NCBI GenBank assembly: GCA_001643675.2 | Contig: LSRY02000028.1 | Span: forward strand, 1,157,068 to 1,221,067 | Direction of reading: 5' to 3' | Source: Monocercomonoides exilis PA203 | Taxonomy: Eukaryota; Protista; Preaxostyla | Length of the DNA stretch: 64,000 bases | Shown: positions 44,205 through 64,000 of the stretch, in pieces | Numbering within the stretch: position 1 is the first letter of the stretch | How the letters are laid out: each line of letters begins with the position of its first letter | Program-made: the position numbers and the translations under genes | The notes under the pieces: generated by a model | Databases searched by the model: none | What the model saw: only the letters and a program-made list of their open reading frames with translations | What the model was told of the DNA's origin: nothing

Positions 44205-44210
44205 TAACCA

Positions 44211-44262: not shown

Positions 44263-44314
44263 GGACGTCATGGGATTTTTGATCAAACCCATAATAAAAA
44301 TTATAATTTCCGAG

Positions 44315-45268: not shown

Positions 45269-45377
45269 TTTATATTTTATTTCCATTTAAATTTTTATAC
45301 AATTCATTTAAGTCCCAATAGGGTGCAAGAATGCGTATTTAATATAAATCGATATGTTTTCTAAAAAAAAAAAATTA

Positions 45378-46586: not shown

Positions 46587-46760
46587 CTTTATGAAGTGTC
46601 AAAAACGGAAATAAAAGATCAATATCTAGACATATGAAATAAAATTATGGCATAAATTGTTCCAATCTTTGCCTAGCATATCTAGGCCTTCCATAATACT
46701 CCTGAAACAAAGCAACATGATTATTAATTGCTTTATCAAATAATGGCCTAATTCTTTTCA

Positions 46761-47096: not shown

Positions 47097-47119
47097 TAAC
47101 CATGACTCAGAAGTTGACT

Positions 47120-47154
47120 CAGAAGTTGCCGGTAATACTAGGCGGCAACTTCTG
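47120..47154 (-). promoter_or_regulatory. Virus B origin stem-loop, copy 2
   Basis: Identical stem; nonanucleotide at 47132-47140. Confidence 0.95.
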
Positions 47155-47206
47155 GGACGTCATGGGATTTTTGATCAAACCCATAATAAAAATTATAATT
47201 TCCGAG

Positions 47207-48160
47207 ATGTCACAAATAAATAACACACGTTCAAGATGTTGGTGCTTCACAATTAACAACTACACACCAGACGAATATCAGCATGTAACAAACATAGAAT
47301 GCGAATACTTGGTGGTAGGAAAAGAAAAAGGTGCTTTAGGAACGGATCATCTACAAGGTTATATATACTTTAAAAACCAAAGAAGATTCAATGCAGTAAA
47401 AACATTAATAAGCAACAGGTGCCATTTAGAAACAGCTATAGGAACACCAGAACAAAATAGAACATATTGCACAAAAGAAGGTGATTATTTCGAGAAGGGA
47501 ACATTACCTAAACAAGGTAAACGTTCTGATCTAGAAGAAGCAGCAGACCTAATCCTAAAAGGAAAGAAAGTATACGATTTAGCAATGGATCATCCGGGAT
47601 TGGTAGCAAGAAATTTTAAAGGATTACAATATTTAGAGGACCAAACAATTGTTCACAACCCCATCAGAAGAACAACTCCAAGACAAACATATTGGATATA
47701 CGGTGATTCAGAAAAAGGTAAAACCAGACTAGCAATTGATAGACTTCTACAATTAGAAACAGCAATGATGACATCAATATATGACTGGCCAAAATCTAAG
47801 GATTTCATAGATAACTATCACGGCGAAAAACTTGCTATATTCGATGACTTCAGACCGTCAGGATCAATGGACTTTGACATATTCCTAAGAATAACTGACC
47901 CATGGATAAATCCAACGATAAACGTCAAAGGTGGAACTTCAAGATGGATAGTTGATGTTATATATTTTACTTCTATATCACAGCCTGTCCCGCTATGGTT
48001 AAACGCTAAACCTAACCTAGCTGGTGAACAACAACGACAAATTAAACGACGAATAACCGAAATTAACATCCTAGATGCTATGCATACTGTTAATCCAGAT
48101 AATGACGATGAAACTCAACCTACTCAAGACGAAACATCACATTTTTCTTTACAACTTTAA
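47207..48160 (+). CDS. rep: Virus B Rep, copy 2
   Basis: Protein identical to copy 1. Confidence 0.96.
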   Translation: MSQINNTRSRCWCFTINNYTPDEYQHVTNIECEYLVVGKEKGALGTDHLQGYIYFKNQRRFNAVKTLISNRCHLETAIGTPEQNRTYCTKEGDYFEKGTLPKQGKRSDLEEAADLILKGKKVYDLAMDHPGLVARNFKGLQYLEDQTIVHNPIRRTTPRQTYWIYGDSEKGKTRLAIDRLLQLETAMMTSIYDWPKSKDFIDNYHGEKLAIFDDFRPSGSMDFDIFLRITDPWINPTINVKGGTSRWIVDVIYFTSISQPVPLWLNAKPNLAGEQQRQIKRRITEINILDAMHTVNPDNDDETQPTQDETSHFSLQL

Positions 48161-48269
48161 TTTATATTTTATTTCCATTTAAATTTTTATACAATTCATT
48201 TAAGTCCCAATAGGGTGCAAGAATGCGTATTTAATATAAATCGATATGTTTTCTAAAAAAAAAAAATTA

Positions 48270-49478
48270 TTAATCATCATGTAAAATAGTAAAAGAAGAG
48301 GAGGGCCCAGGAATAGAACCGGAGGCGCCATCACTACCACGTGGTTCATTACCGGTTCCACCACTGACCTCCTCGTTATCTTCTTCCATTGAAATTGAAG
48401 TAGGTAAAGGACCTGCAGGTCCAGGTTCTCCAACAGGTTGGTAAAGTTTACTATCAGCATCTGTCAAATTCATACCTGTAGTATATCTATAATAACCTAT
48501 TTGATCGTACTTAACCCTAACAGTTAAATTCGGATCAGCACCACCAGATTCCCAAAGGTTATGAAACTTGTCTTCTGCACCAAAACCACCTATTAAATAG
48601 ATAGTATAAAACCACCTATTAGTTTCTACATCATTAGTATATCTATTCTCTAAATGCGGATAAATATTAAACTTAAACTGCGTAACCCAATTAGTATCCT
48701 CACTTACTCTTAACAATTTATCCAGATATAGCTGAACATTGTAGTTTGCACACCACATTCTTTTAAATCTCTTAACATAACCCGAAGTCAAAAGATAAGG
48801 TCTATTAAACATAGACCATAAATAATTACTAATAGTAGGATTACTACCCCATTTCCTAAATACTAGAACTCTCACATATGCATGCGTATATGAACTAGGT
48901 TCTAATCCAGTAGATCCATATTTAGTAAATGCAAATAAAAAGTTATAATTTATCTTATAACACATATAATTAGTCTTAACATTATCTAACATAGAAGGCA
49001 TAGACGAACTTACAGTTATAGTTGTAATAGAATTACTAGGATATGTAATTTGTAACGTAGGTAGCATAGGCATATTATACACATAAAACACATCTGTTGA
49101 ACTATAAACCTTACGATAATCAACAGGTCTATTCTTGTACAACCAAGACAAATATCTATACTTCCTACGTCTATATCTACGTCTTCTCCTAATACGATTC
49201 TTTCTTCCTCCTCTCCTACGACGCCTAATTTTTAATCCAGTTCCTGTCTGCTTTATCTGTTTCCAATTTTGAACTCGTCCCTGACCACTAGCTCGAATAG
49301 CTTTATATAACTTATTCCTATGATACATTCCTCTTAACATATTAATACCAGCTTTAGCCCCTCTCCATAAATAATAATCACCTGTAAACTTACCAATTCT
49401 AGTAACTACAGGCTTAGCCCTATTCATAAATCTCATTATTGATGCTGCTCTAGATGCGTACGGTACAATCGCTTGCAT
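48270..49478 (-). CDS. cap: Virus B capsid protein, copy 2
   Basis: Protein identical to copy 1. Confidence 0.9.
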   Translation of the reverse strand: MQAIVPYASRAASIMRFMNRAKPVVTRIGKFTGDYYLWRGAKAGINMLRGMYHRNKLYKAIRASGQGRVQNWKQIKQTGTGLKIRRRRRGGRKNRIRRRRRYRRRKYRYLSWLYKNRPVDYRKVYSSTDVFYVYNMPMLPTLQITYPSNSITTITVSSSMPSMLDNVKTNYMCYKINYNFLFAFTKYGSTGLEPSSYTHAYVRVLVFRKWGSNPTISNYLWSMFNRPYLLTSGYVKRFKRMWCANYNVQLYLDKLLRVSEDTNWVTQFKFNIYPHLENRYTNDVETNRWFYTIYLIGGFGAEDKFHNLWESGGADPNLTVRVKYDQIGYYRYTTGMNLTDADSKLYQPVGEPGPAGPLPTSISMEEDNEEVSGGTGNEPRGSDGASGSIPGPSSSFTILHDD

Positions 49479-49652
49479 CTTTATGAAGTGTCAAAAACGG
49501 AAATAAAAGATCAATATCTAGACATATGAAATAAAATTATGGCATAAATTGTTCCAATCTTTGCCTAGCATATCTAGGCCTTCCATAATACTCCTGAAAC
49601 AAAGCAACATGATTATTAATTGCTTTATCAAATAATGGCCTAATTCTTTTCA

Positions 49653-49988
49653 TTAACATTCTAGTTCGTGCAGTTTTTGTCTTTCTTCACTACCAACAAC
49701 CCTAAGAAACCTAGGTCTCCTTCTATTCTTAATTCTCATAATTCGCCATATACTATTAAACTGTTCTATAACCTTTTCCCAAACACGGTCAACCTCATTC
49801 AAGTACCACCACATATTATTATACTGATGTTGCCAACACCTTGAACCCTCCGGAGCCCAGCTATAATTAACCTCTTCTTGATACGTCCATGCATCTATAG
49901 GATATATAAATCCAGCCCACCATCCTCGATGTTTCCAATCAACAAGTGTAACTGACCTTGGCATATAGTTAGATCTAACCCTTAACAT
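49653..49988 (-). CDS. Virus B ORF3, 111-aa allele
   Basis: T5 allele. Confidence 0.65.
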   Translation of the reverse strand: MLRVRSNYMPRSVTLVDWKHRGWWAGFIYPIDAWTYQEEVNYSWAPEGSRCWQHQYNNMWWYLNEVDRVWEKVIEQFNSIWRIMRIKNRRRPRFLRVVGSEERQKLHELEC

Positions 49989-50011
49989 TAACCATGACTC
50001 AGAAGTTGACT

Positions 50012-50046
50012 CAGAAGTTGCCGGTAATACTAGGCGGCAACTTCTG
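50012..50046 (-). promoter_or_regulatory. Virus B origin stem-loop, copy 3
   Basis: Identical stem; nonanucleotide at 50024-50032. Confidence 0.95.
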
Positions 50047-50098
50047 GGACGTCATGGGATTTTTGATCAAACCCATAATAAAAATTATAATTTCCGAG

Positions 50099-51052
50099 AT
50101 GTCACAAATAAATAACACACGTTCAAGATGTTGGTGCTTCACAATTAACAACTACACACCAGACGAATATCAGCATGTAACAAACATAGAATGCGAATAC
50201 TTGGTGGTAGGAAAAGAAAAAGGTGCTTTAGGAACGGATCATCTACAAGGTTATATATACTTTAAAAACCAAAGAAGATTCAATGCAGTAAAAACATTAA
50301 TAAGCAACAGGTGCCATTTAGAAACAGCTATAGGAACACCAGAACAAAATAGAACATATTGCACAAAAGAAGGTGATTATTTCGAGAAGGGAACATTACC
50401 TAAACAAGGTAAACGTTCTGATCTAGAAGAAGCAGCAGACCTAATCCTAAAAGGAAAGAAAGTATACGATTTAGCAATGGATCATCCGGGATTGGTAGCA
50501 AGAAATTTTAAAGGATTACAATATTTAGAGGACCAAACAATTGTTCACAACCCCATCAGAAGAACAACTCCAAGACAAACATATTGGATATACGGTGATT
50601 CAGAAAAAGGTAAAACCAGACTAGCAATTGATAGACTTCTACAATTAGAAACAGCAATGATGACATCAATATATGACTGGCCAAAATCTAAGGATTTCAT
50701 AGATAACTATCACGGCGAAAAACTTGCTATATTCGATGACTTCAGACCGTCAGGATCAATGGACTTTGACATATTCCTAAGAATAACTGACCCATGGATA
50801 AATCCAACGATAAACGTCAAAGGTGGAACTTCAAGATGGATAGTTGATGTTATATATTTTACTTCTATATCACAGCCTGTCCCGCTATGGTTAAACGCTA
50901 AACCTAACCTAGCTGGTGAACAACAACGACAAATTAAACGACGAATAACCGAAATTAACATCCTAGATGCTATGCATACTGTTAATCCAGATAATGACGA
51001 TGAAACTCAACCTACTCAAGACGAAACATCACATTTTTCTTTACAACTTTAA
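50099..51052 (+). CDS. rep: Virus B Rep, copy 3
   Basis: Protein identical to copy 1. Confidence 0.96.
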   Translation: MSQINNTRSRCWCFTINNYTPDEYQHVTNIECEYLVVGKEKGALGTDHLQGYIYFKNQRRFNAVKTLISNRCHLETAIGTPEQNRTYCTKEGDYFEKGTLPKQGKRSDLEEAADLILKGKKVYDLAMDHPGLVARNFKGLQYLEDQTIVHNPIRRTTPRQTYWIYGDSEKGKTRLAIDRLLQLETAMMTSIYDWPKSKDFIDNYHGEKLAIFDDFRPSGSMDFDIFLRITDPWINPTINVKGGTSRWIVDVIYFTSISQPVPLWLNAKPNLAGEQQRQIKRRITEINILDAMHTVNPDNDDETQPTQDETSHFSLQL

Positions 51053-51162
51053 TTTATATTTTATTTCCATTTAAATTTTTATACAATTCATTTAAGTCCC
51101 AATAGGGTGCAAGAATGCGTATTTAATATAAATCGATATGTTTTCTAAAAAAAAAAAAATTA

Positions 51163-52371
51163 TTAATCATCATGTAAAATAGTAAAAGAAGAGGAGGGCC
51201 CAGGAATAGAACCGGAGGCGCCATCACTACCACGTGGTTCATTACCGGTTCCACCACTGACCTCCTCGTTATCTTCTTCCATTGAAATTGAAGTAGGTAA
51301 AGGACCTGCAGGTCCAGGTTCTCCAACAGGTTGGTAAAGTTTACTATCAGCATCTGTCAAATTCATACCTGTAGTATATCTATAATAACCTATTTGATCG
51401 TACTTAACCCTAACAGTTAAATTCGGATCAGCACCACCAGATTCCCAAAGGTTATGAAACTTGTCTTCTGCACCAAAACCACCTATTAAATAGATAGTAT
51501 AAAACCACCTATTAGTTTCTACATCATTAGTATATCTATTCTCTAAATGCGGATAAATATTAAACTTAAACTGCGTAACCCAATTAGTATCCTCACTTAC
51601 TCTTAACAATTTATCCAGATATAGCTGAACATTGTAGTTTGCACACCACATTCTTTTAAATCTCTTAACATAACCCGAAGTCAAAAGATAAGGTCTATTA
51701 AACATAGACCATAAATAATTACTAATAGTAGGATTACTACCCCATTTCCTAAATACTAGAACTCTCACATATGCATGCGTATATGAACTAGGTTCTAATC
51801 CAGTAGATCCATATTTAGTAAATGCAAATAAAAAGTTATAATTTATCTTATAACACATATAATTAGTCTTAACATTATCTAACATAGAAGGCATAGACGA
51901 ACTTACAGTTATAGTTGTAATAGAATTACTAGGATATGTAATTTGTAACGTAGGTAGCATAGGCATATTATACACATAAAACACATCTGTTGAACTATAA
52001 ACCTTACGATAATCAACAGGTCTATTCTTGTACAACCAAGACAAATATCTATACTTCCTACGTCTATATCTACGTCTTCTCCTAATACGATTCTTTCTTC
52101 CTCCTCTCCTACGACGCCTAATTTTTAATCCAGTTCCTGTCTGCTTTATCTGTTTCCAATTTTGAACTCGTCCCTGACCACTAGCTCGAATAGCTTTATA
52201 TAACTTATTCCTATGATACATTCCTCTTAACATATTAATACCAGCTTTAGCCCCTCTCCATAAATAATAATCACCTGTAAACTTACCAATTCTAGTAACT
52301 ACAGGCTTAGCCCTATTCATAAATCTCATTATTGATGCTGCTCTAGATGCGTACGGTACAATCGCTTGCAT
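51163..52371 (-). CDS. cap: Virus B capsid protein, copy 3
   Basis: Protein identical to copy 1. Confidence 0.9.
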   Translation of the reverse strand: MQAIVPYASRAASIMRFMNRAKPVVTRIGKFTGDYYLWRGAKAGINMLRGMYHRNKLYKAIRASGQGRVQNWKQIKQTGTGLKIRRRRRGGRKNRIRRRRRYRRRKYRYLSWLYKNRPVDYRKVYSSTDVFYVYNMPMLPTLQITYPSNSITTITVSSSMPSMLDNVKTNYMCYKINYNFLFAFTKYGSTGLEPSSYTHAYVRVLVFRKWGSNPTISNYLWSMFNRPYLLTSGYVKRFKRMWCANYNVQLYLDKLLRVSEDTNWVTQFKFNIYPHLENRYTNDVETNRWFYTIYLIGGFGAEDKFHNLWESGGADPNLTVRVKYDQIGYYRYTTGMNLTDADSKLYQPVGEPGPAGPLPTSISMEEDNEEVSGGTGNEPRGSDGASGSIPGPSSSFTILHDD

Positions 52372-52545
52372 CTTTATGAAGTGTCAAAAACGGAAATAAA
52401 AGATCAATATCTAGACATATGAAATAAAATTATGGCATAAATTGTTCCAATCTTTGCCTAGCATATCTAGGCCTTCCATAATACTCCTGAAACAAAGCAA
52501 CATGATTATTAATTGCTTTATCAAATAATGGCCTAATTCTTTTCA

Positions 52546-52881
52546 TTAACATTCTAGTTCGTGCAGTTTTTGTCTTTCTTCACTACCAACAACCCTAAGA
52601 AACCTAGGTCTCCTTCTATTCTTAATTCTCATAATTCGCCATATACTATTAAACTGTTCTATAACCTTTTCCCAAACACGGTCAACCTCATTCAAGTACC
52701 ACCACATATTATTATACTGATGTTGCCAACACCTTGAACCCTCCGGAGCCCAGCTATAATTAACCTCTTCTTGATACGTCCATGCATCTATAGGATATAT
52801 AAATCCAGCCCACCATCCTCGATGTTTCCAATCAACAAGTGTAACTGACCTTGGCATATAGTTAGATCTAACCCTTAACAT
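52546..52881 (-). CDS. Virus B ORF3, 111-aa allele
   Basis: T5 allele. Confidence 0.65.
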   Translation of the reverse strand: MLRVRSNYMPRSVTLVDWKHRGWWAGFIYPIDAWTYQEEVNYSWAPEGSRCWQHQYNNMWWYLNEVDRVWEKVIEQFNSIWRIMRIKNRRRPRFLRVVGSEERQKLHELEC

Positions 52882-52904
52882 TAACCATGACTCAGAAGTT
52901 GACT

Positions 52905-52939
52905 CAGAAGTTGCCGGTAATACTAGGCGGCAACTTCTG
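52905..52939 (-). promoter_or_regulatory. Virus B origin stem-loop, copy 4
   Basis: Identical stem; nonanucleotide at 52917-52925. Confidence 0.95.
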
Positions 52940-52991
52940 GGACGTCATGGGATTTTTGATCAAACCCATAATAAAAATTATAATTTCCGAG

Positions 52992-53945
52992 ATGTCACAA
53001 ATAAATAACACACGTTCAAGATGTTGGTGCTTCACAATTAACAACTACACACCAGACGAATATCAGCATGTAACAAACATAGAATGCGAATACTTGGTGG
53101 TAGGAAAAGAAAAAGGTGCTTTAGGAACGGATCATCTACAAGGTTATATATACTTTAAAAACCAAAGAAGATTCAATGCAGTAAAAACATTAATAAGCAA
53201 CAGGTGCCATTTAGAAACAGCTATAGGAACACCAGAACAAAATAGAACATATTGCACAAAAGAAGGTGATTATTTCGAGAAGGGAACATTACCTAAACAA
53301 GGTAAACGTTCTGATCTAGAAGAAGCAGCAGACCTAATCCTAAAAGGAAAGAAAGTATACGATTTAGCAATGGATCATCCGGGATTGGTAGCAAGAAATT
53401 TTAAAGGATTACAATATTTAGAGGACCAAACAATTGTTCACAACCCCATCAGAAGAACAACTCCAAGACAAACATATTGGATATACGGTGATTCAGAAAA
53501 AGGTAAAACCAGACTAGCAATTGATAGACTTCTACAATTAGAAACAGCAATGATGACATCAATATATGACTGGCCAAAATCTAAGGATTTCATAGATAAC
53601 TATCACGGCGAAAAACTTGCTATATTCGATGACTTCAGACCGTCAGGATCAATGGACTTTGACATATTCCTAAGAATAACTGACCCATGGATAAATCCAA
53701 CGATAAACGTCAAAGGTGGAACTTCAAGATGGATAGTTGATGTTATATATTTTACTTCTATATCACAGCCTGTCCCGCTATGGTTAAACGCTAAACCTAA
53801 CCTAGCTGGTGAACAACAACGACAAATTAAACGACGAATAACCGAAATTAACATCCTAGATGCTATGCATACTGTTAATCCAGATAATGACGATGAAACT
53901 CAACCTACTCAAGACGAAACATCACATTTTTCTTTACAACTTTAA
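52992..53945 (+). CDS. rep: Virus B Rep, copy 4
   Basis: Protein identical to copy 1. Confidence 0.96.
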   Translation: MSQINNTRSRCWCFTINNYTPDEYQHVTNIECEYLVVGKEKGALGTDHLQGYIYFKNQRRFNAVKTLISNRCHLETAIGTPEQNRTYCTKEGDYFEKGTLPKQGKRSDLEEAADLILKGKKVYDLAMDHPGLVARNFKGLQYLEDQTIVHNPIRRTTPRQTYWIYGDSEKGKTRLAIDRLLQLETAMMTSIYDWPKSKDFIDNYHGEKLAIFDDFRPSGSMDFDIFLRITDPWINPTINVKGGTSRWIVDVIYFTSISQPVPLWLNAKPNLAGEQQRQIKRRITEINILDAMHTVNPDNDDETQPTQDETSHFSLQL

Positions 53946-54055
53946 TTTATATTTTATTTCCATTTAAATTTTTATACAATTCATTTAAGTCCCAATAGGG
54001 TGCAAGAATGCGTATTTAATATAAATCGATATGTTTTCTAAAAAAAAAAAAATTA

Positions 54056-55264
54056 TTAATCATCATGTAAAATAGTAAAAGAAGAGGAGGGCCCAGGAAT
54101 AGAACCGGAGGCGCCATCACTACCACGTGGTTCATTACCGGTTCCACCACTGACCTCCTCGTTATCTTCTTCCATTGAAATTGAAGTAGGTAAAGGACCT
54201 GCAGGTCCAGGTTCTCCAACAGGTTGGTAAAGTTTACTATCAGCATCTGTCAAATTCATACCTGTAGTATATCTATAATAACCTATTTGATCGTACTTAA
54301 CCCTAACAGTTAAATTCGGATCAGCACCACCAGATTCCCAAAGGTTATGAAACTTGTCTTCTGCACCAAAACCACCTATTAAATAGATAGTATAAAACCA
54401 CCTATTAGTTTCTACATCATTAGTATATCTATTCTCTAAATGCGGATAAATATTAAACTTAAACTGCGTAACCCAATTAGTATCCTCACTTACTCTTAAC
54501 AATTTATCCAGATATAGCTGAACATTGTAGTTTGCACACCACATTCTTTTAAATCTCTTAACATAACCCGAAGTCAAAAGATAAGGTCTATTAAACATAG
54601 ACCATAAATAATTACTAATAGTAGGATTACTACCCCATTTCCTAAATACTAGAACTCTCACATATGCATGCGTATATGAACTAGGTTCTAATCCAGTAGA
54701 TCCATATTTAGTAAATGCAAATAAAAAGTTATAATTTATCTTATAACACATATAATTAGTCTTAACATTATCTAACATAGAAGGCATAGACGAACTTACA
54801 GTTATAGTTGTAATAGAATTACTAGGATATGTAATTTGTAACGTAGGTAGCATAGGCATATTATACACATAAAACACATCTGTTGAACTATAAACCTTAC
54901 GATAATCAACAGGTCTATTCTTGTACAACCAAGACAAATATCTATACTTCCTACGTCTATATCTACGTCTTCTCCTAATACGATTCTTTCTTCCTCCTCT
55001 CCTACGACGCCTAATTTTTAATCCAGTTCCTGTCTGCTTTATCTGTTTCCAATTTTGAACTCGTCCCTGACCACTAGCTCGAATAGCTTTATATAACTTA
55101 TTCCTATGATACATTCCTCTTAACATATTAATACCAGCTTTAGCCCCTCTCCATAAATAATAATCACCTGTAAACTTACCAATTCTAGTAACTACAGGCT
55201 TAGCCCTATTCATAAATCTCATTATTGATGCTGCTCTAGATGCGTACGGTACAATCGCTTGCAT
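54056..55264 (-). CDS. cap: Virus B capsid protein, copy 4
   Basis: Protein identical to copy 1. Confidence 0.9.
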   Translation of the reverse strand: MQAIVPYASRAASIMRFMNRAKPVVTRIGKFTGDYYLWRGAKAGINMLRGMYHRNKLYKAIRASGQGRVQNWKQIKQTGTGLKIRRRRRGGRKNRIRRRRRYRRRKYRYLSWLYKNRPVDYRKVYSSTDVFYVYNMPMLPTLQITYPSNSITTITVSSSMPSMLDNVKTNYMCYKINYNFLFAFTKYGSTGLEPSSYTHAYVRVLVFRKWGSNPTISNYLWSMFNRPYLLTSGYVKRFKRMWCANYNVQLYLDKLLRVSEDTNWVTQFKFNIYPHLENRYTNDVETNRWFYTIYLIGGFGAEDKFHNLWESGGADPNLTVRVKYDQIGYYRYTTGMNLTDADSKLYQPVGEPGPAGPLPTSISMEEDNEEVSGGTGNEPRGSDGASGSIPGPSSSFTILHDD

Positions 55265-55438
55265 CTTTATGAAGTGTCAAAAACGGAAATAAAAGATCAA
55301 TATCTAGACATATGAAATAAAATTATGGCATAAATTGTTCCAATCTTTGCCTAGCATATCTAGGCCTTCCATAATACTCCTGAAACAAAGCAACATGATT
55401 ATTAATTGCTTTATCAAATAATGGCCTAATTCTTTTCA

Positions 55439-55774
55439 TTAACATTCTAGTTCGTGCAGTTTTTGTCTTTCTTCACTACCAACAACCCTAAGAAACCTAG
55501 GTCTCCTTCTATTCTTAATTCTCATAATTCGCCATATACTATTAAACTGTTCTATAACCTTTTCCCAAACACGGTCAACCTCATTCAAGTACCACCACAT
55601 ATTATTATACTGATGTTGCCAACACCTTGAACCCTCCGGAGCCCAGCTATAATTAACCTCTTCTTGATACGTCCATGCATCTATAGGATATATAAATCCA
55701 GCCCACCATCCTCGATGTTTCCAATCAACAAGTGTAACTGACCTTGGCATATAGTTAGATCTAACCCTTAACAT
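55439..55774 (-). CDS. Virus B ORF3, 111-aa allele
   Basis: T5 allele. Confidence 0.65.
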   Translation of the reverse strand: MLRVRSNYMPRSVTLVDWKHRGWWAGFIYPIDAWTYQEEVNYSWAPEGSRCWQHQYNNMWWYLNEVDRVWEKVIEQFNSIWRIMRIKNRRRPRFLRVVGSEERQKLHELEC

Positions 55775-55797
55775 TAACCATGACTCAGAAGTTGACT

Positions 55798-55832
55798 CAG
55801 AAGTTGCCGGTAATACTAGGCGGCAACTTCTG
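55798..55832 (-). promoter_or_regulatory. Virus B origin stem-loop, copy 5
   Basis: Identical stem; nonanucleotide at 55810-55818. Confidence 0.95.
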
Positions 55833-55883
55833 GGACGTCATGGGATTTTGATCAAACCCATAATAAAAATTATAATTTCCGAG

Positions 55884-56837
55884 ATGTCACAAATAAATAA
55901 CACACGTTCAAGATGTTGGTGCTTCACAATTAACAACTACACACCAGACGAATATCAGCATGTAACAAACATAGAATGCGAATACTTGGTGGTAGGAAAA
56001 GAAAAAGGTGCTTTAGGAACGGATCATCTACAAGGTTATATATACTTTAAAAACCAAAGAAGATTCAATGCAGTAAAAACATTAATAAGCAACAGGTGCC
56101 ATTTAGAAACAGCTATAGGAACACCAGAACAAAATAGAACATATTGCACAAAAGAAGGTGATTATTTCGAGAAGGGAACATTACCTAAACAAGGTAAACG
56201 TTCTGATCTAGAAGAAGCAGCAGACCTAATCCTAAAAGGAAAGAAAGTATACGATTTAGCAATGGATCATCCGGGATTGGTAGCAAGAAATTTTAAAGGA
56301 TTACAATATTTAGAGGACCAAACAATTGTTCACAACCCCATCAGAAGAACAACTCCAAGACAAACATATTGGATATACGGTGATTCAGAAAAAGGTAAAA
56401 CCAGACTAGCAATTGATAGACTTCTACAATTAGAAACAGCAATGATGACATCAATATATGACTGGCCAAAATCTAAGGATTTCATAGATAACTATCACGG
56501 CGAAAAACTTGCTATATTCGATGACTTCAGACCGTCAGGATCAATGGACTTTGACATATTCCTAAGAATAACTGACCCATGGATAAATCCAACGATAAAC
56601 GTCAAAGGTGGAACTTCAAGATGGATAGTTGATGTTATATATTTTACTTCTATATCACAGCCTGTCCCGCTATGGTTAAACGCTAAACCTAACCTAGCTG
56701 GTGAACAACAACGACAAATTAAACGACGAATAACCGAAATTAACATCCTAGATGCTATGCATACTGTTAATCCAGATAATGACGATGAAACTCAACCTAC
56801 TCAAGACGAAACATCACATTTTTCTTTACAACTTTAA
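55884..56837 (+). CDS. rep: Virus B Rep, copy 5
   Basis: Identical from the MSQ start. A 1-nt deletion upstream affects only the doubtful N-terminal extension. Confidence 0.95.
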   Translation: MSQINNTRSRCWCFTINNYTPDEYQHVTNIECEYLVVGKEKGALGTDHLQGYIYFKNQRRFNAVKTLISNRCHLETAIGTPEQNRTYCTKEGDYFEKGTLPKQGKRSDLEEAADLILKGKKVYDLAMDHPGLVARNFKGLQYLEDQTIVHNPIRRTTPRQTYWIYGDSEKGKTRLAIDRLLQLETAMMTSIYDWPKSKDFIDNYHGEKLAIFDDFRPSGSMDFDIFLRITDPWINPTINVKGGTSRWIVDVIYFTSISQPVPLWLNAKPNLAGEQQRQIKRRITEINILDAMHTVNPDNDDETQPTQDETSHFSLQL

Positions 56838-56947
56838 TTTATATTTTATTTCCATTTAAATTTTTATACAATTCATTTAAGTCCCAATAGGGTGCAAGAA
56901 TGCGTATTTAATATAAATCGATATGTTTTCTAAAAAAAAAAAAATTA

Positions 56948-58157
56948 TTAATCATCATGTAAAATAGTAAAAGAAGAGGAGGGCCCAGGAATAGAACCGG
57001 AGGCGCCATCACTACCACGTGGTTCATTACCGGTTCCACCACTGACCTCCTCGTTATCTTCTTCCATTGAAATTGAAGTAGGTAAAGGACCTGCAGGTCC
57101 AGGTTCTCCAACAGGTTGGTAAAGTTTACTATCAGCATCTGTCAAATTCATACCTGTAGTATATCTATAATAACCTATTTGATCGTACTTAACCCTAACA
57201 GTTAAATTCGGATCAGCACCACCAGATTCCCAAAGGTTATGAAACTTGTCTTCTGCACCAAAACCACCTATTAAATAGATAGTATAAAACCACCTATTAG
57301 TTTCTACATCATTAGTATATCTATTCTCTAAATGCGGATAAATATTAAACTTAAACTGCGTAACCCAATTAGTATCCTCACTTACTCTTAACAATTTATC
57401 CAGATATAGCTGAACATTGTAGTTTGCACACCACATTCTTTTAAATCTCTTAACATAACCCGAAGTCAAAAGATAAGGTCTATTAAACATAGACCATAAA
57501 TAATTACTAATAGTAGGATTACTACCCCATTTCCTAAATACTAGAACTCTCACATATGCATGCGTATATGAACTAGGTTCTAATCCAGTAGATCCATATT
57601 TAGTAAATGCAAATAAAAAGTTATAATTTATCTTATAACACATATAATTAGTCTTAACATTATCTAACATAGAAGGCATAGACGAACTTACAGTTATAGT
57701 TGTAATAGAATTACTAGGATATGTAATTTGTAACGTAGGTAGCATAGGCATATTATACACATAAAACACATCTGTTGAACTATAAACCTTACGATAATCA
57801 ACAGGTCTATTCTTGTACAACCAAGACAAATATCTATACTTCCTACGTCTATATCTACGTCTTCTCCTAATACGATTCTTTCTTCCTCCCTCTCCTACGA
57901 CGCCTAATTTTTAATCCAGTTCCTGTCTGCTTTATCTGTTTCCAATTTTGAACTCGTCCCTGACCACTAGCTCGAATAGCTTTATATAACTTATTCCTAT
58001 GATACATTCCTCTTAACATATTAATACCAGCTTTAGCCCCTCTCCATAAATAATAATCACCTGTAAACTTACCAATTCTAGTAACTACAGGCTTAGCCCT
58101 ATTCATAAATCTCATTATTGATGCTGCTCTAGATGCGTACGGTACAATCGCTTGCAT
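56948..58157 (-). CDS. cap: Virus B capsid, copy 5, split by a 1-nt insertion (real frameshift or consensus error)
   Basis: An extra C near 57890 (CTTCCTCCCTCTCC versus CTTCCTCCTCTCC) splits the ORF into 96 and 293 aa. Confidence 0.8.
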
Positions 58158-58331
58158 CTTTATGAAGTGTCAAAAACGGAAATAAAAGATCAATATCTAG
58201 ACATATGAAATAAAATTATGGCATAAATTGTTCCAATCTTTGCCTAGCATATCTAGGCCTTCCATAATACTCCTGAAACAAAGCAACATGATTATTAATT
58301 GCTTTATCAAATAATGGCCTAATTCTTTTCA

Positions 58332-58667
58332 TTAACATTCTAGTTCGTGCAGTTTTTGTCTTTCTTCACTACCAACAACCCTAAGAAACCTAGGTCTCCT
58401 TCTATTCTTAATTCTCATAATTCGCCATATACTATTAAACTGTTCTATAACCTTTTCCCAAACACGGTCAACCTCATTCAAGTACCACCACATATTATTA
58501 TACTGATGTTGCCAACACCTTGAACCCTCCGGAGCCCAGCTATAATTAACCTCTTCTTGATACGTCCATGCATCTATAGGATATATAAATCCAGCCCACC
58601 ATCCTCGATGTTTCCAATCAACAAGTGTAACTGACCTTGGCATATAGTTAGATCTAACCCTTAACAT
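58332..58667 (-). CDS. Virus B ORF3, 111-aa allele
   Basis: T5 allele. Confidence 0.65.
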   Translation of the reverse strand: MLRVRSNYMPRSVTLVDWKHRGWWAGFIYPIDAWTYQEEVNYSWAPEGSRCWQHQYNNMWWYLNEVDRVWEKVIEQFNSIWRIMRIKNRRRPRFLRVVGSEERQKLHELEC

Positions 58668-58690
58668 TAACCATGACTCAGAAGTTGACT

Positions 58691-58725
58691 CAGAAGTTGC
58701 CGGTAATACTAGGCGGCAACTTCTG
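58691..58725 (-). promoter_or_regulatory. Virus B origin stem-loop, copy 6
   Basis: Identical stem; nonanucleotide at 58703-58711. Confidence 0.95.
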
Positions 58726-58777
58726 GGACGTCATGGGATTTTTGATCAAACCCATAATAAAAATTATAATTTCCGAG

Positions 58778-59731
58778 ATGTCACAAATAAATAACACACG
58801 TTCAAGATGTTGGTGCTTCACAATTAACAACTACACACCAGACGAATATCAGCATGTAACAAACATAGAATGCGAATACTTGGTGGTAGGAAAAGAAAAA
58901 GGTGCTTTAGGAACGGATCATCTACAAGGTTATATATACTTTAAAAACCAAAGAAGATTCAATGCAGTAAAAACATTAATAAGCAACAGGTGCCATTTAG
59001 AAACAGCTATAGGAACACCAGAACAAAATAGAACATATTGCACAAAAGAAGGTGATTATTTCGAGAAGGGAACATTACCTAAACAAGGTAAACGTTCTGA
59101 TCTAGAAGAAGCAGCAGACCTAATCCTAAAAGGAAAGAAAGTATACGATTTAGCAATGGATCATCCGGGATTGGTAGCAAGAAATTTTAAAGGATTACAA
59201 TATTTAGAGGACCAAACAATTGTTCACAACCCCATCAGAAGAACAACTCCAAGACAAACATATTGGATATACGGTGATTCAGAAAAAGGTAAAACCAGAC
59301 TAGCAATTGATAGACTTCTACAATTAGAAACAGCAATGATGACATCAATATATGACTGGCCAAAATCTAAGGATTTCATAGATAACTATCACGGCGAAAA
59401 ACTTGCTATATTCGATGACTTCAGACCGTCAGGATCAATGGACTTTGACATATTCCTAAGAATAACTGACCCATGGATAAATCCAACGATAAACGTCAAA
59501 GGTGGAACTTCAAGATGGATAGTTGATGTTATATATTTTACTTCTATATCACAGCCTGTCCCGCTATGGTTAAACGCTAAACCTAACCTAGCTGGTGAAC
59601 AACAACGACAAATTAAACGACGAATAACCGAAATTAACATCCTAGATGCTATGCATACTGTTAATCCAGATAATGACGATGAAACTCAACCTACTCAAGA
59701 CGAAACATCACATTTTTCTTTACAACTTTAA
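58778..59731 (+). CDS. rep: Virus B Rep, copy 6
   Basis: Protein identical to copy 1. Confidence 0.96.
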   Translation: MSQINNTRSRCWCFTINNYTPDEYQHVTNIECEYLVVGKEKGALGTDHLQGYIYFKNQRRFNAVKTLISNRCHLETAIGTPEQNRTYCTKEGDYFEKGTLPKQGKRSDLEEAADLILKGKKVYDLAMDHPGLVARNFKGLQYLEDQTIVHNPIRRTTPRQTYWIYGDSEKGKTRLAIDRLLQLETAMMTSIYDWPKSKDFIDNYHGEKLAIFDDFRPSGSMDFDIFLRITDPWINPTINVKGGTSRWIVDVIYFTSISQPVPLWLNAKPNLAGEQQRQIKRRITEINILDAMHTVNPDNDDETQPTQDETSHFSLQL

Positions 59732-59823
59732 TTTATATTTTATTTCCATTTAAATTTTTATACAATTCATTTAAGTCCCAATAGGGTGCAAGAATGCGTA
59801 TTTAATATAAATCGATATGTTTT

Positions 59824-61047
59824 CTAAAAAAAAAAATTATTAATCATCATGTAAAATAGTAAAAGAAGAGGAGGGCCCAGGAATAGAACCGGAGGCGCCA
59901 TCACTACCACGTGGTTCATTACCGGTTCCACCACTGACCTCCTCGTTATCTTCTTCCATTGAAATTGAGTAGGTAAAGGACCTGCAGGTCCAGGTTCTCC
60001 AACAGGTTGGTAAAGTTTACTATCAGCATCTGTCAAATTCATACCTGTAGTATATCTATAATAACCTATTTGATCGTACTTAACCCTAACAGTTAAATTC
60101 GGATCAGCACCACCAGATTCCCAAAGGTTATGAAACTTGTCTTCTGCACCAAAACCACCTATTAAATAGATAGTATAAAACCACCTATTAGTTTCTACAT
60201 CATTAGTATATCTATTCTCTAAATGCGGATAAATATTAAACTTAAACTGCGTAACCCAATTAGTATCCTCACTTACTCTTAACAATTTATCCAGATATAG
60301 CTGAACATTGTAGTTTGCACACCACATTCTTTTAAATCTCTTAACATAACCCGAAGTCAAAAGATAAGGTCTATTAAACATAGACCATAAATAATTACTA
60401 ATAGTAGGATTACTACCCCATTTCCTAAATACTAGAACTCTCACATATGCATGCGTATATGAACTAGGTTCTAATCCAGTAGATCCATATTTAGTAAATG
60501 CAAATAAAAAGTTATAATTTATCTTATAACACATATAATTAGTCTTAACATTATCTAACATAGAAGGCATAGACGAACTTACAGTTATAGTTGTAATAGA
60601 ATTACTAGGATATGTAATTTGTAACGTAGGTAGCATAGGCATATTATACACATAAAACACATCTGTTGAACTATAAACCTTACGATAATCAACAGGTCTA
60701 TTCTTGTACAACCAAGACAAATATCTATACTTCCTACGTCTATATCTACGTCTTCTCCTAATACGATTCTTTCTTCCTCCTCTCCTACGACGCCTAATTT
60801 TTAATCCAGTTCCTGTCTGCTTTATCTGTTTCCAATTTTGAACTCGTCCCTGACCACTAGCTCGAATAGCTTTATATAACTTATTCCTATGATACATTCC
60901 TCTTAACATATTAATACCAGCTTTAGCCCCTCTCCATAAATAATAATCACCTGTAAACTTACCAATTCTAGTAACTACAGGCTTAGCCCTATTCATAAAT
61001 CTCATTATTGATGCTGCTCTAGATGCGTACGGTACAATCGCTTGCAT
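59824..61047 (-). CDS. cap: Virus B capsid, copy 6, with a frameshifted C-terminus (1-nt deletion near 59968)
   Basis: GAAATTGAGT versus GAAATTGAAGT in the other copies. The tail changes after PAGPLPT. Confidence 0.8.
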   Translation of the reverse strand: MQAIVPYASRAASIMRFMNRAKPVVTRIGKFTGDYYLWRGAKAGINMLRGMYHRNKLYKAIRASGQGRVQNWKQIKQTGTGLKIRRRRRGGRKNRIRRRRRYRRRKYRYLSWLYKNRPVDYRKVYSSTDVFYVYNMPMLPTLQITYPSNSITTITVSSSMPSMLDNVKTNYMCYKINYNFLFAFTKYGSTGLEPSSYTHAYVRVLVFRKWGSNPTISNYLWSMFNRPYLLTSGYVKRFKRMWCANYNVQLYLDKLLRVSEDTNWVTQFKFNIYPHLENRYTNDVETNRWFYTIYLIGGFGAEDKFHNLWESGGADPNLTVRVKYDQIGYYRYTTGMNLTDADSKLYQPVGEPGPAGPLPTQFQWKKITRRSVVEPVMNHVVVMAPPVLFLGPPLLLLFYMMINNFFF

Positions 61048-61105
61048 CTTTATGAAGTGTCAAAAACGGAAATAAAAGATCAATATCTAGACATATGAAA
61101 TAAAA

Positions 61106-61558
61106 TTATGGCATAAATTGTTCCAATCTTTGCCTAGCATATCTAGGCCTTCCATAATACTCCTGAAACAAAGCAACATGATTATTAATTGCTTTATCAA
61201 ATAATGGCCTAATTCTTTTCATTAACATTCTAGTTCGTGCAGTTTTTTGTCTTTCTTCACTACCAACAACCCTAAGAAACCTAGGTCTCCTTCTATTCTT
61301 AATTCTCATAATTCGCCATATACTATTAAACTGTTCTATAACCTTTTCCCAAACACGGTCAACCTCATTCAAGTACCACCACATATTATTATACTGATGT
61401 TGCCAACACCTTGAACCCTCCGGAGCCCAGCTATAATTAACCTCTTCTTGATACGTCCATGCATCTATAGGATATATAAATCCAGCCCACCATCCTCGAT
61501 GTTTCCAATCAACAAGTGTAACTGACCTTGGCATATAGTTAGATCTAACCCTTAACAT
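61106..61558 (-). CDS. Virus B ORF3, 150-aa full-length allele (terminal copy)
   Basis: T6 allele; protein identical to 43752-44204. Confidence 0.75.
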   Translation of the reverse strand: MLRVRSNYMPRSVTLVDWKHRGWWAGFIYPIDAWTYQEEVNYSWAPEGSRCWQHQYNNMWWYLNEVDRVWEKVIEQFNSIWRIMRIKNRRRPRFLRVVGSEERQKTARTRMLMKRIRPLFDKAINNHVALFQEYYGRPRYARQRLEQFMP

Positions 61559-61564
61559 TAACCA

Positions 61565-61592
61565 TGACTCAGAAGTTGACTCAGAAGTTGCC
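61565..61592 (-). promoter_or_regulatory. Truncated seventh virus B origin (iterons and left stem arm only) abutting the telomere
   Basis: TGACTCAGAAGTTGACTCAGAAGTTGCC is followed by AGGTTAGGG instead of GGTAATACTA. Confidence 0.93.
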
Positions 61593-64000
61593 AGGTTAGG
61601 GTTAGGGTTAGGTTAGGGTTAGGGTTAGGGTTAGGGTTAGGGTTAGGGTTAGGGTTAGGTTAGGGTTAGGGTTAGGTTAGGGTTAGGTTAGGGTTAGGGT
61701 TAGGGTTAGGGTTAGGGTTAGGGTTAGGGTTAGGGTTAGGGTTAGGGTTAGGGTTAGGGTTAGGGTTAGGGTTAGGGTTAGGGTTAGGGTTAGGGTTAGG
61801 GTTAGGGTTAGGGTTAGGGTTAGGGTTAGGGTTAGGGTTAGGGGTTAGGGTTAGGGTTAGGGTTAGGGTTAGGGTTAGGGTTAGGTTAGGGTTAGGGTTA
61901 GGGTTAGGGTTAGGGTTAGGGTTAGGTTAGGGTTAGGGTTAGGGTTAGGTTAGGGTTAGGGTTAGGGTTAGGGTTAGGGTTAGGGTTAGGGTTAGGGTTA
62001 GGGTTAGGGTTAGGGTTAGGGTTAGGGTTAGGGTTAGGGTTAGGGTTAGGGTTAGGGTTAGGGTTAGGGTTAGGGTTAGGGTTAGGGTTAGGGTTAGGGT
62101 TAGGGTTAGGGTTAGGGTTAGGGTTAGGGTTAGGGTTAGGGTTAGGGTTAGGGTTAGGGTTAGGGTTAGGGTTAGGGTTAGGGTTAGGGTTAGGGTTAGG
62201 GGTTAGGGTTAGGGTTAGGGTTAGGGTTAGGTTAGGGTTAGGGTTAGGGTTAGGGTTAGGGTTAGGGGTTAGGGTTAGGGTTAGGGTTAGGGTTAGGGTT
62301 AGGGTTAGGGTTAGGGTTAGGGGTTAGGGTTAGGGTTAGGGTTAGGGTTAGGGTTAGGGTTAGGGTTAGGGTTAGGGTTAGGGTTAGGGTTAGGGTTAGG
62401 GTTAGGGTTAGGGTTAGGGTTAGGGTTAGGGTTAGGGTTAGGGTTAGGGTTAGGGTTAGGGTTAGGGTTAGGGTTAGGGTTAGGGTTAGGGTTAGGGTTA
62501 GGGTTAGGGTTAGGGTTAGGGTTAGGGTTAGGGTTAGGGTTAGGGTTAGGGTTAGGGTTAGGGTTAGGGTTAGGGTTAGGGTTAGGGTTAGGGTTAGGGT
62601 TAGGGTTAGGGTTAGGGTTAGGGTTAGGGTTAGGGTTAGGGTTAGGGTTAGGGTTAGGGTTAGGGTTAGGGTTAGGGTTAGGGTTAGGGGTTAGGGTTAG
62701 GGTTAGGGTTAGGGTTAGGGTTAGGGTTAGGGTTAGGGTTAGGGTTAGGGTTAGGGTTAGGGTTAGGGTTAGGGTTAGGGTTAGGGTTAGGGTTAGGGTT
62801 AGGGTTAGGGTTAGGTTAGGGTTAGGGTTAGGGTTAGGGTTAGGGTTAGGGTTAGGGTTAGGGTTAGGGTTAGGGTTAGGTTAGGGTTAGGGTTAGGGTT
62901 AGGGTTAGGGTTAGGGTTAGGGTTAGGGTTAGGGTTAGGGTTAGGGTTAGGGTTAGGGTTAGGGTTAGGGTTAGGGTTAGGGTTAGGGTTAGGGTTAGGG
63001 TTAGGGTTAGGGTTAGGGTTAGGGTTAGGGTTAGGGTTAGGGTTAGGGTTAGGGTTAGGGTTAGGGTTAGGGTTAGGGTTAGGGTTAGGGTTAGGGTTAG
63101 GGTTAGGGTTAGGGTTAGGGTTAGGGTTAGGGTTAGGGTTAGGGTTAGGGTTAGGGTTAGGGTTAGGGTTAGGGTTAGGGTTAGGGTTAGGGTTAGGGTT
63201 AGGGTTAGGGTTAGGGTTAGGGTTAGGGTTAGGGTTAGGGTTAGGGTTAGGGTTAGGGTTAGGGTTAGGGTTAGGGTTAGGGTTAGGGTTAGGGTTAGGG
63301 TTAGGGTTAGGGTTAGGGTTAGGGTTAGGGTTAGGGTTAGGGTTAGGGTTAGGGTTAGGGTTAGGGTTAGGGTTAGGGTTAGGGTTAGGGTTAGGGTTAG
63401 GGTTAGGGTTAGGGTTAGGGTTAGGGTTAGGGTTAGGGTTAGGGTTAGGGTTAGGGTTAGGGTTAGGGTTAGGGTTAGGGTTAGGGTTAGGGTTAGGGTT
63501 AGGGGTTAGGGTTAGGGTTAGGGTTAGGGTTAGGGTTAGGGTTAGGGTTAGGGTTAGGGTTAGGGTTAGGGTTAGGGTTAGGGTTAGGGTTAGGGTTAGG
63601 GTTAGGGTTAGGGTTAGGGTTAGGGTTAGGGTTAGGGTTAGGGTTAGGGGTTAGGGTTAGGGTTAGGGTTAGGAGGGTTAGGGTTAGGGTTAGGGTTAAG
63701 TGGGGTTAGGTTAGGGTTAGGGTTAGGGTTAGGGTTAGGGTTAGGGGTTAGGGTTAGGGTTAGGGTTAGTTAGGGTTAGGGTTAGGGTTAAGGGTTAGGG
63801 TTAGGTTAAGGTTAGGGTTAGGGTTAGGAAGGGTTAGGGTTAGGGTTAGGGTTAGGGGTTAGGGTTAGGGTTAGGGTTCAGGGTTAGGGTTAGGGTTAGG
63901 TTAGGGTTAAGGTTAGGTTAGTTAGGGTTAAGGTTAGATGTGGTTAGGGTTAGGGTTGGAGGCGAGGGTTGAAGGGCAAGGTTAGGGTTAGGTTAGGGTA
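61593..64000 (+). repeat. Telomeric (TTAGGG)n tract, ~2.4 kb, chromosome end
   Basis: G-rich strand runs 5'->3' toward the window end. Occasional TTAGG/TTAGGGG variants and a noisy last ~350 bp. Confidence 0.99.

What the first reader, a model, noticed from the sequence alone, without database searches (positions are those of the whole stretch)
61565..61610. The telomere joins the virus at the Rep nick site
Seen: intact origins read CAGAAGTTGCC-GGT-AATACTA, while the terminal one reads CAGAAGTTGCC-A-GGT-TAGGG. Established: Rep cleaves TAGTATT^AC, which on the + strand maps to ...GCCGGT^AATACTA. The junction is therefore 3 nt from the nick, or exactly at it if the single extra A is an insertion or error. 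Landing within a few nt of the nick in a 2.9-kb unit is unlikely by chance. Inference, two models. (1) + strand synthesis ran off at the nick, or a fork collapsed there, leaving a 3'-GGT end that matches the telomere repeat and seeded telomerase. (2) Rep joined its covalently held 5'-AC end to the telomeric C-strand, where CCCTA^AC loosely mimics TATT^AC; this would be HUH-mediated telomere targeting.
Basis: partly seen in the sequence, partly recalled or inferred. Interest (0 to 1): 0.93.

Follow-up and report, generated by a model that had tools for sequence, protein, structure and literature searches.

The report
Telomere starts at viral nick site
At one chromosome end of a gut protist, six near-identical head-to-tail copies of a small circular DNA virus run straight into the telomere three bases short of where the viral enzyme is predicted to cut, which likely means the DNA ended at that cut and the cell built a new telomere on the broken end.

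Summary
Observation confirmed in the assembly; the junction itself could not be checked in reads. A 6.2-copy array of an intact-looking 2.89-kb CRESS-DNA virus (no substitutions between copies) ends at 61592 and is followed by 2.4 kb of TTAGGG. Viral identity stops 3 nt before the predicted Rep nick; every one-change reading puts the join 0-3 nt before it (chance 0.1-0.4%, 1.2% for the whole stem-loop; n=1). The nick lies on the strand that templates synthesis towards the telomere, and 3 nt short is where leading strands stop at a nick in Xenopus extracts. Best reading: polymerase run-off at a Rep nick, then de novo telomere addition, in a host reported to lack NHEJ. The extra A is more simply the first telomere base than an insertion. 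Rep strand transfer into the telomere is not favoured: no telomere repeats on the inner side, where the array joins an older related provirus by a homeologous crossover; the donor end is not preserved; CCCTA^AC misses both preferred T positions. A host gene matches Monocercomonoides exilis; short-read contigs support the inner junction and roughly six copies.

The parts
61593..64000 (+). Telomere tract (TTAGGG)n, G-rich strand running towards the end; starts with AGG; short (two-G) units enriched in the first 100 nt
   Evidence: 5 of 17 short G-runs in the first 100 nt vs 3 of 265 at 400-2000, Fisher p 2e-5
61564..61592 (+). Terminal half-origin: two 12-nt direct repeats (iteron-like) and 11 of the 12 bases of one stem arm; ends 3 nt before the predicted nick
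43579..61592 (.). Tandem array of CRESS virus A, 6.23 units of 2891-2893 bp, no substitutions between copies
   Evidence: short-read contig depth about 6-7 times single copy (weak)
58691..58725 (-). Last intact origin of virus A (12-bp stem, 11-nt loop, nonamer TAGTATTAC on the - strand, predicted nick between + 58704 and 58705); five more at 44228, 47120, 50012, 52905, 55798
58778..59731 (+). Rep of virus A (317 aa; HUH nickase + SF3 helicase), open in all six units
   Evidence: PDB 7lar Rep, E 1.7e-34
45378..46586 (-). Capsid of virus A (402 aa), predicted single jelly roll; one per unit (two copies carry single-base frameshifts in homopolymers, likely assembly errors)
61106..61558 (-). Third ORF of virus A (150 aa; also 43752-44204), homologous to the N-terminal extension of the Banfec virus 5 capsid annotation
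   Evidence: 40% over 88 aa, E 8e-17
43560..43600 (.). Inner junction: sharp in-frame crossover at 43579 between the 5' capsid regions of old virus B (left) and virus A (right)
   Evidence: bridged by a single-copy-depth short-read contig 41121-43608 with no differences
41151..43578 (.). Older, single-copy provirus B: remnant of third ORF, origin, Rep split into two ORFs (41436-41921, 41977-42408), capsid ORF 42497-43693 whose first codons come from virus A
41326..41367 (+). Origin of virus B: same stem core as A but nonamer TAGTATTAC (41344-41352) on the + (Rep) strand, opposite to A
38289..39260 (+). Host ISXO2/Merlin-like transposase in a cluster of high-copy repeats that ends at about 41150 and cuts off provirus B on the left
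31971..33455 (+). Host gene identical to the protein named MONOS_1169 of Monocercomonoides exilis

Best explanation
A recently acquired tandem array of a CRESS-DNA virus forms the end of this chromosome arm, and the telomere was likely built de novo on a DNA end made when synthesis of the + strand ran off at a nick that the viral Rep would cut in the origin's - strand. Shown by sequence: the array, its crossover into older provirus B, the nonamer on the - strand, the stop 3 nt before the nick site, the telomere polarity. Inferred: Rep nicks TAGTATT^AC and stays bound to the 5'-ACC end, which is the centromere-side piece; a polymerase copying the - strand towards the chromosome end stops about 3 nt short, at ...GTTGCC-3'; the blocked 5' strand is trimmed; with no NHEJ the 3' end gets telomere repeats (telomerase most likely; copying from another telomere not excluded). 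Two routes give the same end and cannot be told apart here: (a) a chromosomal fork collapsed at a nicked origin in an already integrated, longer array and the distal arm was lost; (b) a broken end in provirus B's capsid gene paired with a virus A circle, copied round it 6.2 times and ran off when the template was nicked.
For: Join 0-3 nt before the nick under all 8 one-edit parses, chance 0.1-1.2%. Origin and strand are well founded: fold; the same 10-mer TAGTATTACC is the PCV2 Rep substrate and cleavage is between -1 and +1 (PMC7826260); 8 of 58 IMG/VR loci with the same stem core have TATTAC in the loop, all 8 with a Rep, and in 5 of the 8 an arm repeat follows 3' of the stem on the nonamer strand, as on A's - strand. 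Rep motifs are intact. A rightward fork meeting a bottom-strand nick gives a one-ended break whose leading strand mostly stops 3 nt from the end (bioRxiv 10.1101/2020.08.17.254235): same geometry, same offset. NHEJ is reported missing in M. exilis (PMC6759080). No TTAGGG on the + strand in 1-61590, so this is not an insertion into an existing telomere. Copies have no substitutions, so the event is recent. Contig depth fits 6 copies plus a partial one covering the capsid-start-to-origin segment (ratio 1.079 seen, 1.058 expected; weak).
Against: One junction only. The join is not seen in the short-read contigs of 4 of 4 runs, all one sample and possibly the source of the assembly. Nicking by this Rep, its expression and telomerase in this host were not tested. 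A literal -3 end (GCC) has no complementarity to a telomerase template, and a recessed 3' end under a protein-blocked overhang must first be processed (inference). The -3 offset was measured in Xenopus extracts, not in an oxymonad. The stem-loop could break without Rep. Provirus B's own left end lies about 200 nt from its nick site, and another single-copy element with an A-like origin sits intact in non-telomeric sequence, so ending at the nick is not a rule for these elements.
Confidence: 0.64

Rival explanations
1. Rep-independent break at the origin hairpin: the 12-bp stem-loop forms on single-stranded DNA at a fork, is cut by a host structure-specific nuclease or stalls the polymerase, and the end is healed.
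For: The join is at the top of one stem arm (11 of 12 bases kept); the hairpin is stable on both strands.
Against: A 12-bp stem with an 11-nt loop is a modest fragile site (own knowledge); it does not predict the match to nick strand and -3 offset; an intact-looking Rep is encoded six times beside it.
Confidence: 0.11
2. Assembly or long-read artefact: a linear viral replication intermediate ending at the nick was chimerically joined to a telomere fragment, or the array belongs to a separate telomere-capped linear episome.
For: Join absent from Logan contigs; nanopore chimeras are frequent enough to mimic integrations, and plasmid arrays capped by telomeres occur in Acanthamoeba (PMC11995660); linear viral molecules would end at the nick.
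Against: Depth shows about 6-7 copies and no large surplus of free virus (weak); the inner junction is bridged at single-copy depth; no second branch from the unit into long unique DNA was listed, although a branch inside the shared motif at 45374-45420 cannot be excluded; polarity is correct and the 2.4-kb tract fits the reported mean of about 2.1 kb (PMC6759080); contigs like human DNA are filtered by the tool.
Confidence: 0.11
3. HUH strand transfer: Rep joins its covalently held 5'-AC end to a 3'-OH on the telomeric C-strand (one-ended transposition into a telomere); the inner end later recombines with provirus B.
For: [quoted passage not shown]
Against: The - strand reads CCCTAACC-T-GGCAAC, not ...ACCGGCAAC; a lone insertion between two runs is unlike the 7 of 7 homopolymer differences seen here; no telomere repeats on the inner side, whereas Helitron copies have them on both sides; best C-strand registers match 4 of 9 nonamer bases and the one with A+1 C+2 lacks T-4 and T-1.
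Confidence: 0.08
4. Coincidence: an ordinary terminal break in the array healed at a random place that happens to be next to the nick.
For: n = 1 and the target was chosen after seeing the data.
Against: 0.14% uniform, up to 1.2% for the whole stem-loop; seven sites with 5-6 nt of telomere match in the unit were not used.
Confidence: 0.04

Closest known systems
Leading-strand fork collapse at a nick (Vrtis et al., bioRxiv 10.1101/2020.08.17.254235; passages read) followed by de novo telomere addition (review PMC8012806; passages)
   Same: Nick on the template of the strand made towards the end; nascent strand stops 3 nt short; new telomere on non-telomeric sequence.
   Different: There the nick is engineered (Tet-protected nick, Cas9 nickase) or the break is made by HO; here the nicking enzyme would be a natural viral Rep encoded in the chromosome end itself.
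Telomere-inserted Helitrons of Paramecium aurelia (PMC13085455; passages)
   Same: HUH element at chromosome ends, abutting telomere repeats at the nicked end.
   Different: Many copies, telomere repeats on both sides, fixed orientation; here one array, repeats on the outer side only, inner end made by recombination with a related provirus, and the element has a capsid.
HHV-6A/B telomere integration and U94 (review PMC7762089; passages)
   Same: Whole viral genome at a chromosome end; a Rep-derived protein is present.
   Different: HHV-6 carries its own telomere repeats and integrates by homology; a cited title says U94 is dispensable. Virus A has no telomere repeats (best + strand match 6 nt).
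Telomere-capped plasmid arrays in Acanthamoeba castellanii (PMC11995660; abstract and passages)
   Same: Circular foreign DNA becomes a head-to-tail array of 5-11 copies with TTAGGG added de novo.
   Different: Artificial plasmid, mostly episomal, no nicking enzyme, no defined end point reported in the passages read.
CRESS endogenous elements of gut protists: Blastocystis, Histomonas, Entamoeba, Giardia (PMC9615429; passages)
   Same: Rep- and Cap-like viral fossils in a gut protist genome that point to the host.
   Different: That paper has 0 mentions of Monocercomonoides, oxymonad, tandem or telomere; here a whole genome is arrayed with open ORFs.
Banfec virus 5 and Sigmofec virus UA08Rod_11492 (names); PCV2 Rep (PDB 7lar)
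   Same: Capsid 44% and 38% identical; Rep has the circovirus-type nickase and helicase.
   Different: Unclassified free viruses with no host known to me; virus A's Rep groups (99/98) only with two unnamed proteins, P0004 and P0005.

Membership tests
CRESS-DNA virus (Cressdnaviricota) | Rep with HUH nickase motifs I-III and SF3 helicase | tested here: met
   PF02407 E 2.6e-22 and PF00910; FTINN, HLQG, YCTK, GxxxxGKT, DDF, RRI (motif names recalled; motif C reads TSI, shared with P0004 and B as TST/TSI); 7lar E 1.7e-34
CRESS-DNA virus (Cressdnaviricota) | Single jelly-roll capsid | tested here: met
   Model pLDDT 67.9; best matches STNV, geminivirus and CRESS capsids; named capsid homologues
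CRESS-DNA virus (Cressdnaviricota) | Stem-loop origin with NANTATTAC nonamer | tested here: met
CRESS-DNA virus (Cressdnaviricota) | Circular ssDNA genome packaged in virions | not testable with these tools
   A circular-looking contig also arises from a tandem array
Circoviridae | Circovirus capsid family, two-ORF genome of about 2 kb (definition recalled) | tested here: not met
   No Pfam family on either capsid scanned; 2.89 kb with a third ORF
De novo telomere healing at a nick-derived break | Abrupt switch to G-rich repeats in 5'-3' polarity with no subtelomeric or internal telomere repeats | tested here: met
De novo telomere healing at a nick-derived break | End within 0-3 nt of a nick on the template of the outward-running strand | tested here: met
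   the nick is predicted, not measured
De novo telomere healing at a nick-derived break | Junction present in independent reads | tested here: inconclusive
   Only contigs served; join not listed
De novo telomere healing at a nick-derived break | Host telomerase acts on the end | not testable with these tools
   No host genome held; supplement of PMC6759080 unreadable
HUH insertion into telomere repeats (Paramecium Helitron type) | Telomere repeats on both sides of the element | tested here: not met
   0 TTAGGG on + strand in 1-61590; inner end is a capsid-gene crossover
HUH insertion into telomere repeats (Paramecium Helitron type) | Donor 5' end kept exactly from the nick | tested here: not met
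   ACCTGGCAAC against ACCGGCAAC; holds only as far as the assembly base is right
HUH insertion into telomere repeats (Paramecium Helitron type) | Many independent copies with the same end and orientation | not testable with these tools
   Other loci of this genome could not be fetched
Telomere-repeat-mediated herpesvirus integration (HHV-6 type) | Virus carries its own telomere repeat arrays | tested here: not met
   Longest telomere-like run 6 nt on +, 10 nt on - strand

The most novel reading that the evidence does not exclude
The viral origin works as a repeatable chromosome-breakage-and-healing site: this virus lineage lodges at oxymonad chromosome ends by recombining with older proviruses, its Rep keeps nicking the array, releasing unit-length circles and shortening the end origin by origin, and each new end is capped at the nick (by telomerase, or by Rep joining to the C-strand). 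That would be a telomere-anchored latent state for a small ssDNA virus with no telomere repeats of its own.
Probability: 0.15. Interest if true: 0.9.

Novelty: new variant of a known kind. Interest (0 to 1): 0.63.

Why it matters
If reads confirm it, this is a natural, base-resolution record of a viral HUH nick being turned into a chromosome end, with the offset predicted from replication biochemistry. It gives a route by which small ssDNA viruses truncate host chromosomes and persist as whole multi-origin arrays in a cultivable protist reported to lack NHEJ, and it makes that route testable with existing long reads. As a by-product, the array, provirus B and nine further capsid-like proteins named from M. 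exilis point to oxymonads as hosts of a faecal CRESS lineage (Banfec virus 5, Sigmofec virus); I found no paper holding both 'Monocercomonoides' and 'CRESS' in the library searched.

Tried and rejected
No whole genome held, so other virus-telomere joins could not be collected. Sequencing runs: 4 listed, all contigs, one sample, possibly the source; no RNA holder listed, which says nothing on expression. Contigs did not show the telomere join or any loose end with telomere letters; the tool filters human-like contigs and contigs drop branches, so this is no evidence of absence. No relatives of the capsid alignment in viral contigs (0 of 10 candidates) or metagenome contigs (0 of 88). 48 of 58 stem-pattern loci have no Rep hit and were treated as chance. 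Five look-ups of earlier findings gave nothing relevant. Apparent lack of TTAGGG in host DNA vanishes under higher-order Markov models (0 seen, 1.3-3.3 expected): rejected. CpG deamination as source of the A (virus GG + telomere, then G>A) is a valid one-edit parse but CpG depletion is only mild (o/e 0.6-0.9): kept as possible, not preferred. Rfam: 0 matches in 1-47200. Protein atlas: no usable hit for the third ORF; the capsid query did not complete. Rep tree (46 rows: 45 of 109 hits plus B's N-terminal piece) has no family references and leaves B unplaced. Two papers were not held; one was read as its preprint. The supplement of PMC6759080, which lists 196 genes from transposons or integrated viruses (table S11) and repair genes (S4), could not be read and may already name these Rep or capsid genes.

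Full report
What is there. The window is the end of a eukaryotic chromosome. A host ORF at 31971-33455 is 100% identical to a protein that the sources name MONOS_1169 of Monocercomonoides exilis, on a contig of 1.22 Mb. Host genes run to about 38 kb, then a Merlin-like transposase (PF12762) and high-copy repeats to about 41150. From 41151 to 43578 lies one copy of a degraded CRESS virus (B): a remnant of a third ORF (weak match, E 0.012 pairwise), a stem-loop with TAGTATTAC on the + strand at 41344, a Rep split into two ORFs and most of a capsid gene. At 43579 the sequence switches sharply, in frame and inside the 5' part of the capsid gene, to a second virus (A). Virus A then repeats head to tail for 18,014 bp, 6.23 units, up to 61592. 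(TTAGGG)n fills 61593-64000.

Virus A looks whole and recent. The six complete units are 2891-2893 bp; their alignment has 6 variable columns of 2895, all single-base gaps in homopolymer runs, and no substitution; the first partial unit adds one more run-length difference. Short-read contigs list no other letters over the unit. Rep (317 aa) has PF02407 and PF00910 and matches PCV2 Rep in the PDB at E 1.7e-34; the catalytic motifs (names recalled) are present. The 402-aa capsid folds as a jelly roll like STNV, geminivirus and CRESS capsids. Its 14 homologues include Banfec virus 5, Sigmofec virus UA08Rod_11492 and 9 proteins named from M. exilis on five other contigs. The third ORF matches the N-terminal extension of the Banfec virus 5 capsid annotation.

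The origin and the nick. Each intact origin is a 12-bp stem with an 11-nt loop; the nonamer TAGTATTAC is on the - (capsid-sense) strand, followed on that strand by two 12-nt direct repeats. PMC7826260 (passages) gives cleavage between positions -1 and +1 of the nonamer, a covalently held 5' end, and a PCV2 Rep structure with the same 10-mer TAGTATTACC. An independent check: 58 IMG/VR loci hold the stem core; 10 have a Rep, 8 have TATTAC in the loop (all 8 with a Rep; 7 on the Rep strand, 1 opposite as in A), and by my reading of the printed flanks 5 of the 8 repeat part of the arm 3' of the stem on the nonamer strand, as A does. The nick is therefore predicted between + 58704/58705 and equivalents. 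It is not measured for this Rep.

The junction. The last copy stops at GTTGCC (61592), 3 nt before the nick. Scoring all break positions from -10 to +10 in all six telomere phases, 8 parses need one edit and all lie at -3 to 0. They reduce to: end at -3 with a short first repeat (AGG); end at -2 or -1 on GG microhomology with a G>A change at a CpG; end at 0 with an inserted A. I prefer the first: all 7 differences among viral copies are run-length changes, and 5 of 17 G-runs in the first 100 nt of the tract have two Gs against 3 of 265 further out. Chance of landing at -3 to 0 is 0.14% (uniform), 0.13-0.39% with 1-3 nt microhomology required, 1.2% for the whole stem-loop; seven better telomere-like seeds of 5-6 nt in the unit were passed over. 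This is one event, picked after the fact.

Read evidence. Four runs hold the unit, all as contigs, one sample, possibly the source. In X3 the unit lies in contigs of depth 639.6 and 690 against 105.5 (provirus B) and 97.2 (host), that is 6.1-7.1 copies against 6.23 assembled; the ratio of the two contigs (1.079) is near that expected (1.058) if one extra partial copy covers the capsid-start-to-origin segment. The tool warns that depth is no copy number, so this is weak support. A contig with no differences spans 41121-43608 and so bridges host repeat, provirus B and the crossover. The telomere join is not listed in any of the 4 runs; nor is a branch from the unit into long unique DNA, apart from other elements that share short motifs. 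The junction and the A remain unverified.

How it likely works. The piece kept is the one that would carry Rep on its 5' end, and the strand that ends in telomere repeats is the one copied from the nicked strand towards the chromosome end. In Xenopus extracts a rightward fork that meets a bottom-strand nick gives a one-ended break, and leading-strand synthesis mostly stops 3 nt from the end (bioRxiv 10.1101/2020.08.17.254235, passages). That is this geometry and this offset. NHEJ is reported missing and homologous recombination present in M. exilis (PMC6759080, section 8 and passages; PMC8516963, passages), and telomerase can act on non-telomeric ends (PMC8012806, passages). I infer run-off at a Rep nick, trimming of the blocked strand and de novo telomere addition (0.64). 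Either a chromosomal fork collapsed in a longer integrated array, or a broken end in B's capsid gene primed rolling-circle copying of an A circle until the template was nicked; the second explains the crossover, the identical copies and the end in one event, but nothing here separates them. That forks near chromosome ends run outwards, and that tandem origins allow release of unit circles (geminivirus work, not retrievable), is recalled.

Against my reading. Telomerase was not shown in this host. A GCC end offers no pairing to a template. B's left end is about 200 nt from its own nick site and is cut by a host repeat. A further single-copy element carries an A-like origin intact in non-telomeric flanks in 4 of 4 runs. 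So ending at the nick is not general.

Rivals. [quoted passage not shown] Here the inner side has no repeat, the donor end is not preserved, and CCCTA^AC lacks T-4 and T-1, the most preferred positions of the Reps tested: 0.08. Hairpin fragility without Rep: 0.11. Read chimera or separate linear episome, as discussed for Acanthamoeba plasmid arrays (PMC11995660): 0.11. Coincidence: 0.04.

Novelty. Each step is known; the combination in a natural genome was not found in my searches: 'Monocercomonoides' with 'CRESS' gave 0 papers; CRESS/telomere/tandem searches and the HUH/telomere-healing search listed no such case (listings only); the M. exilis long-read paper has 0 mentions of virus or viral in its main text (PMC8767320, passages); PMC6759080 mentions integrated viruses once and refers to a supplement that I could not read. 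The library lacks most subscription papers. Verdict: a real feature of the assembly, a new variant of nick-induced telomere healing, interest 0.63; 0.9 if joins recur at the origin.

Noticed in passing
window 41326-41367 against 44228-44262: Viruses A and B share the stem core but the loop is flipped: B has the nonamer on the Rep strand, A on the capsid strand. Among 8 IMG/VR viruses with this stem and nonamer, 7 are like B and 1 like A.
   Followed up: partly
window 42497-43693: The capsid ORF across the B/A crossover stays open (398 aa): a chimera with the first 38 codons from A and the rest from B; B's capsid is intact although its Rep is split.
   Followed up: partly
other contigs of the same organism: Nine capsid-like proteins named MONOS_ on five other contigs, three of them on one 1.03-Mb contig with close locus numbers; with Banfec virus 5 and Sigmofec virus as free relatives this points to oxymonads as hosts of the lineage.
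   Followed up: partly
window 44226-44261 (loose ends): A third element, single copy, shares A's origin with 2 differences and lies in non-telomeric flanks in 4 of 4 runs.
   Followed up: no
window 45374-45420: A short motif at the capsid 3' end has contig depth up to 1883 in X3 against about 100 for single copy, suggesting many more related elements in the genome.
   Followed up: no
window 61593-61700: Two-G telomere units cluster in the first 100 nt of the tract (5 of 17 against 3 of 265 further out): possibly early imprecise telomerase cycles, a captured variant region, or sequencing error.
   Followed up: partly
window 38106-39559 and 40085-40544: A Merlin/ISXO2-like transposase with candidate 23-nt inverted ends, and a 460-nt MITE-like element with 31-nt inverted ends, both high copy.
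   Followed up: no
L011, L015, L017, L022, L039, L049, L053, L056, L010, L031: The stem core CAGAAGTTG...CAACTTCTG is shared by distant Rep-encoding viruses in IMG/VR (Rep about 25-30% identical to A's), an unusually conserved origin arm.
   Followed up: partly
window 43752-44204: The third ORF is separate in virus A but its homologue is annotated as fused to the capsid in Banfec virus 5; function not known, no atlas hit.
   Followed up: partly
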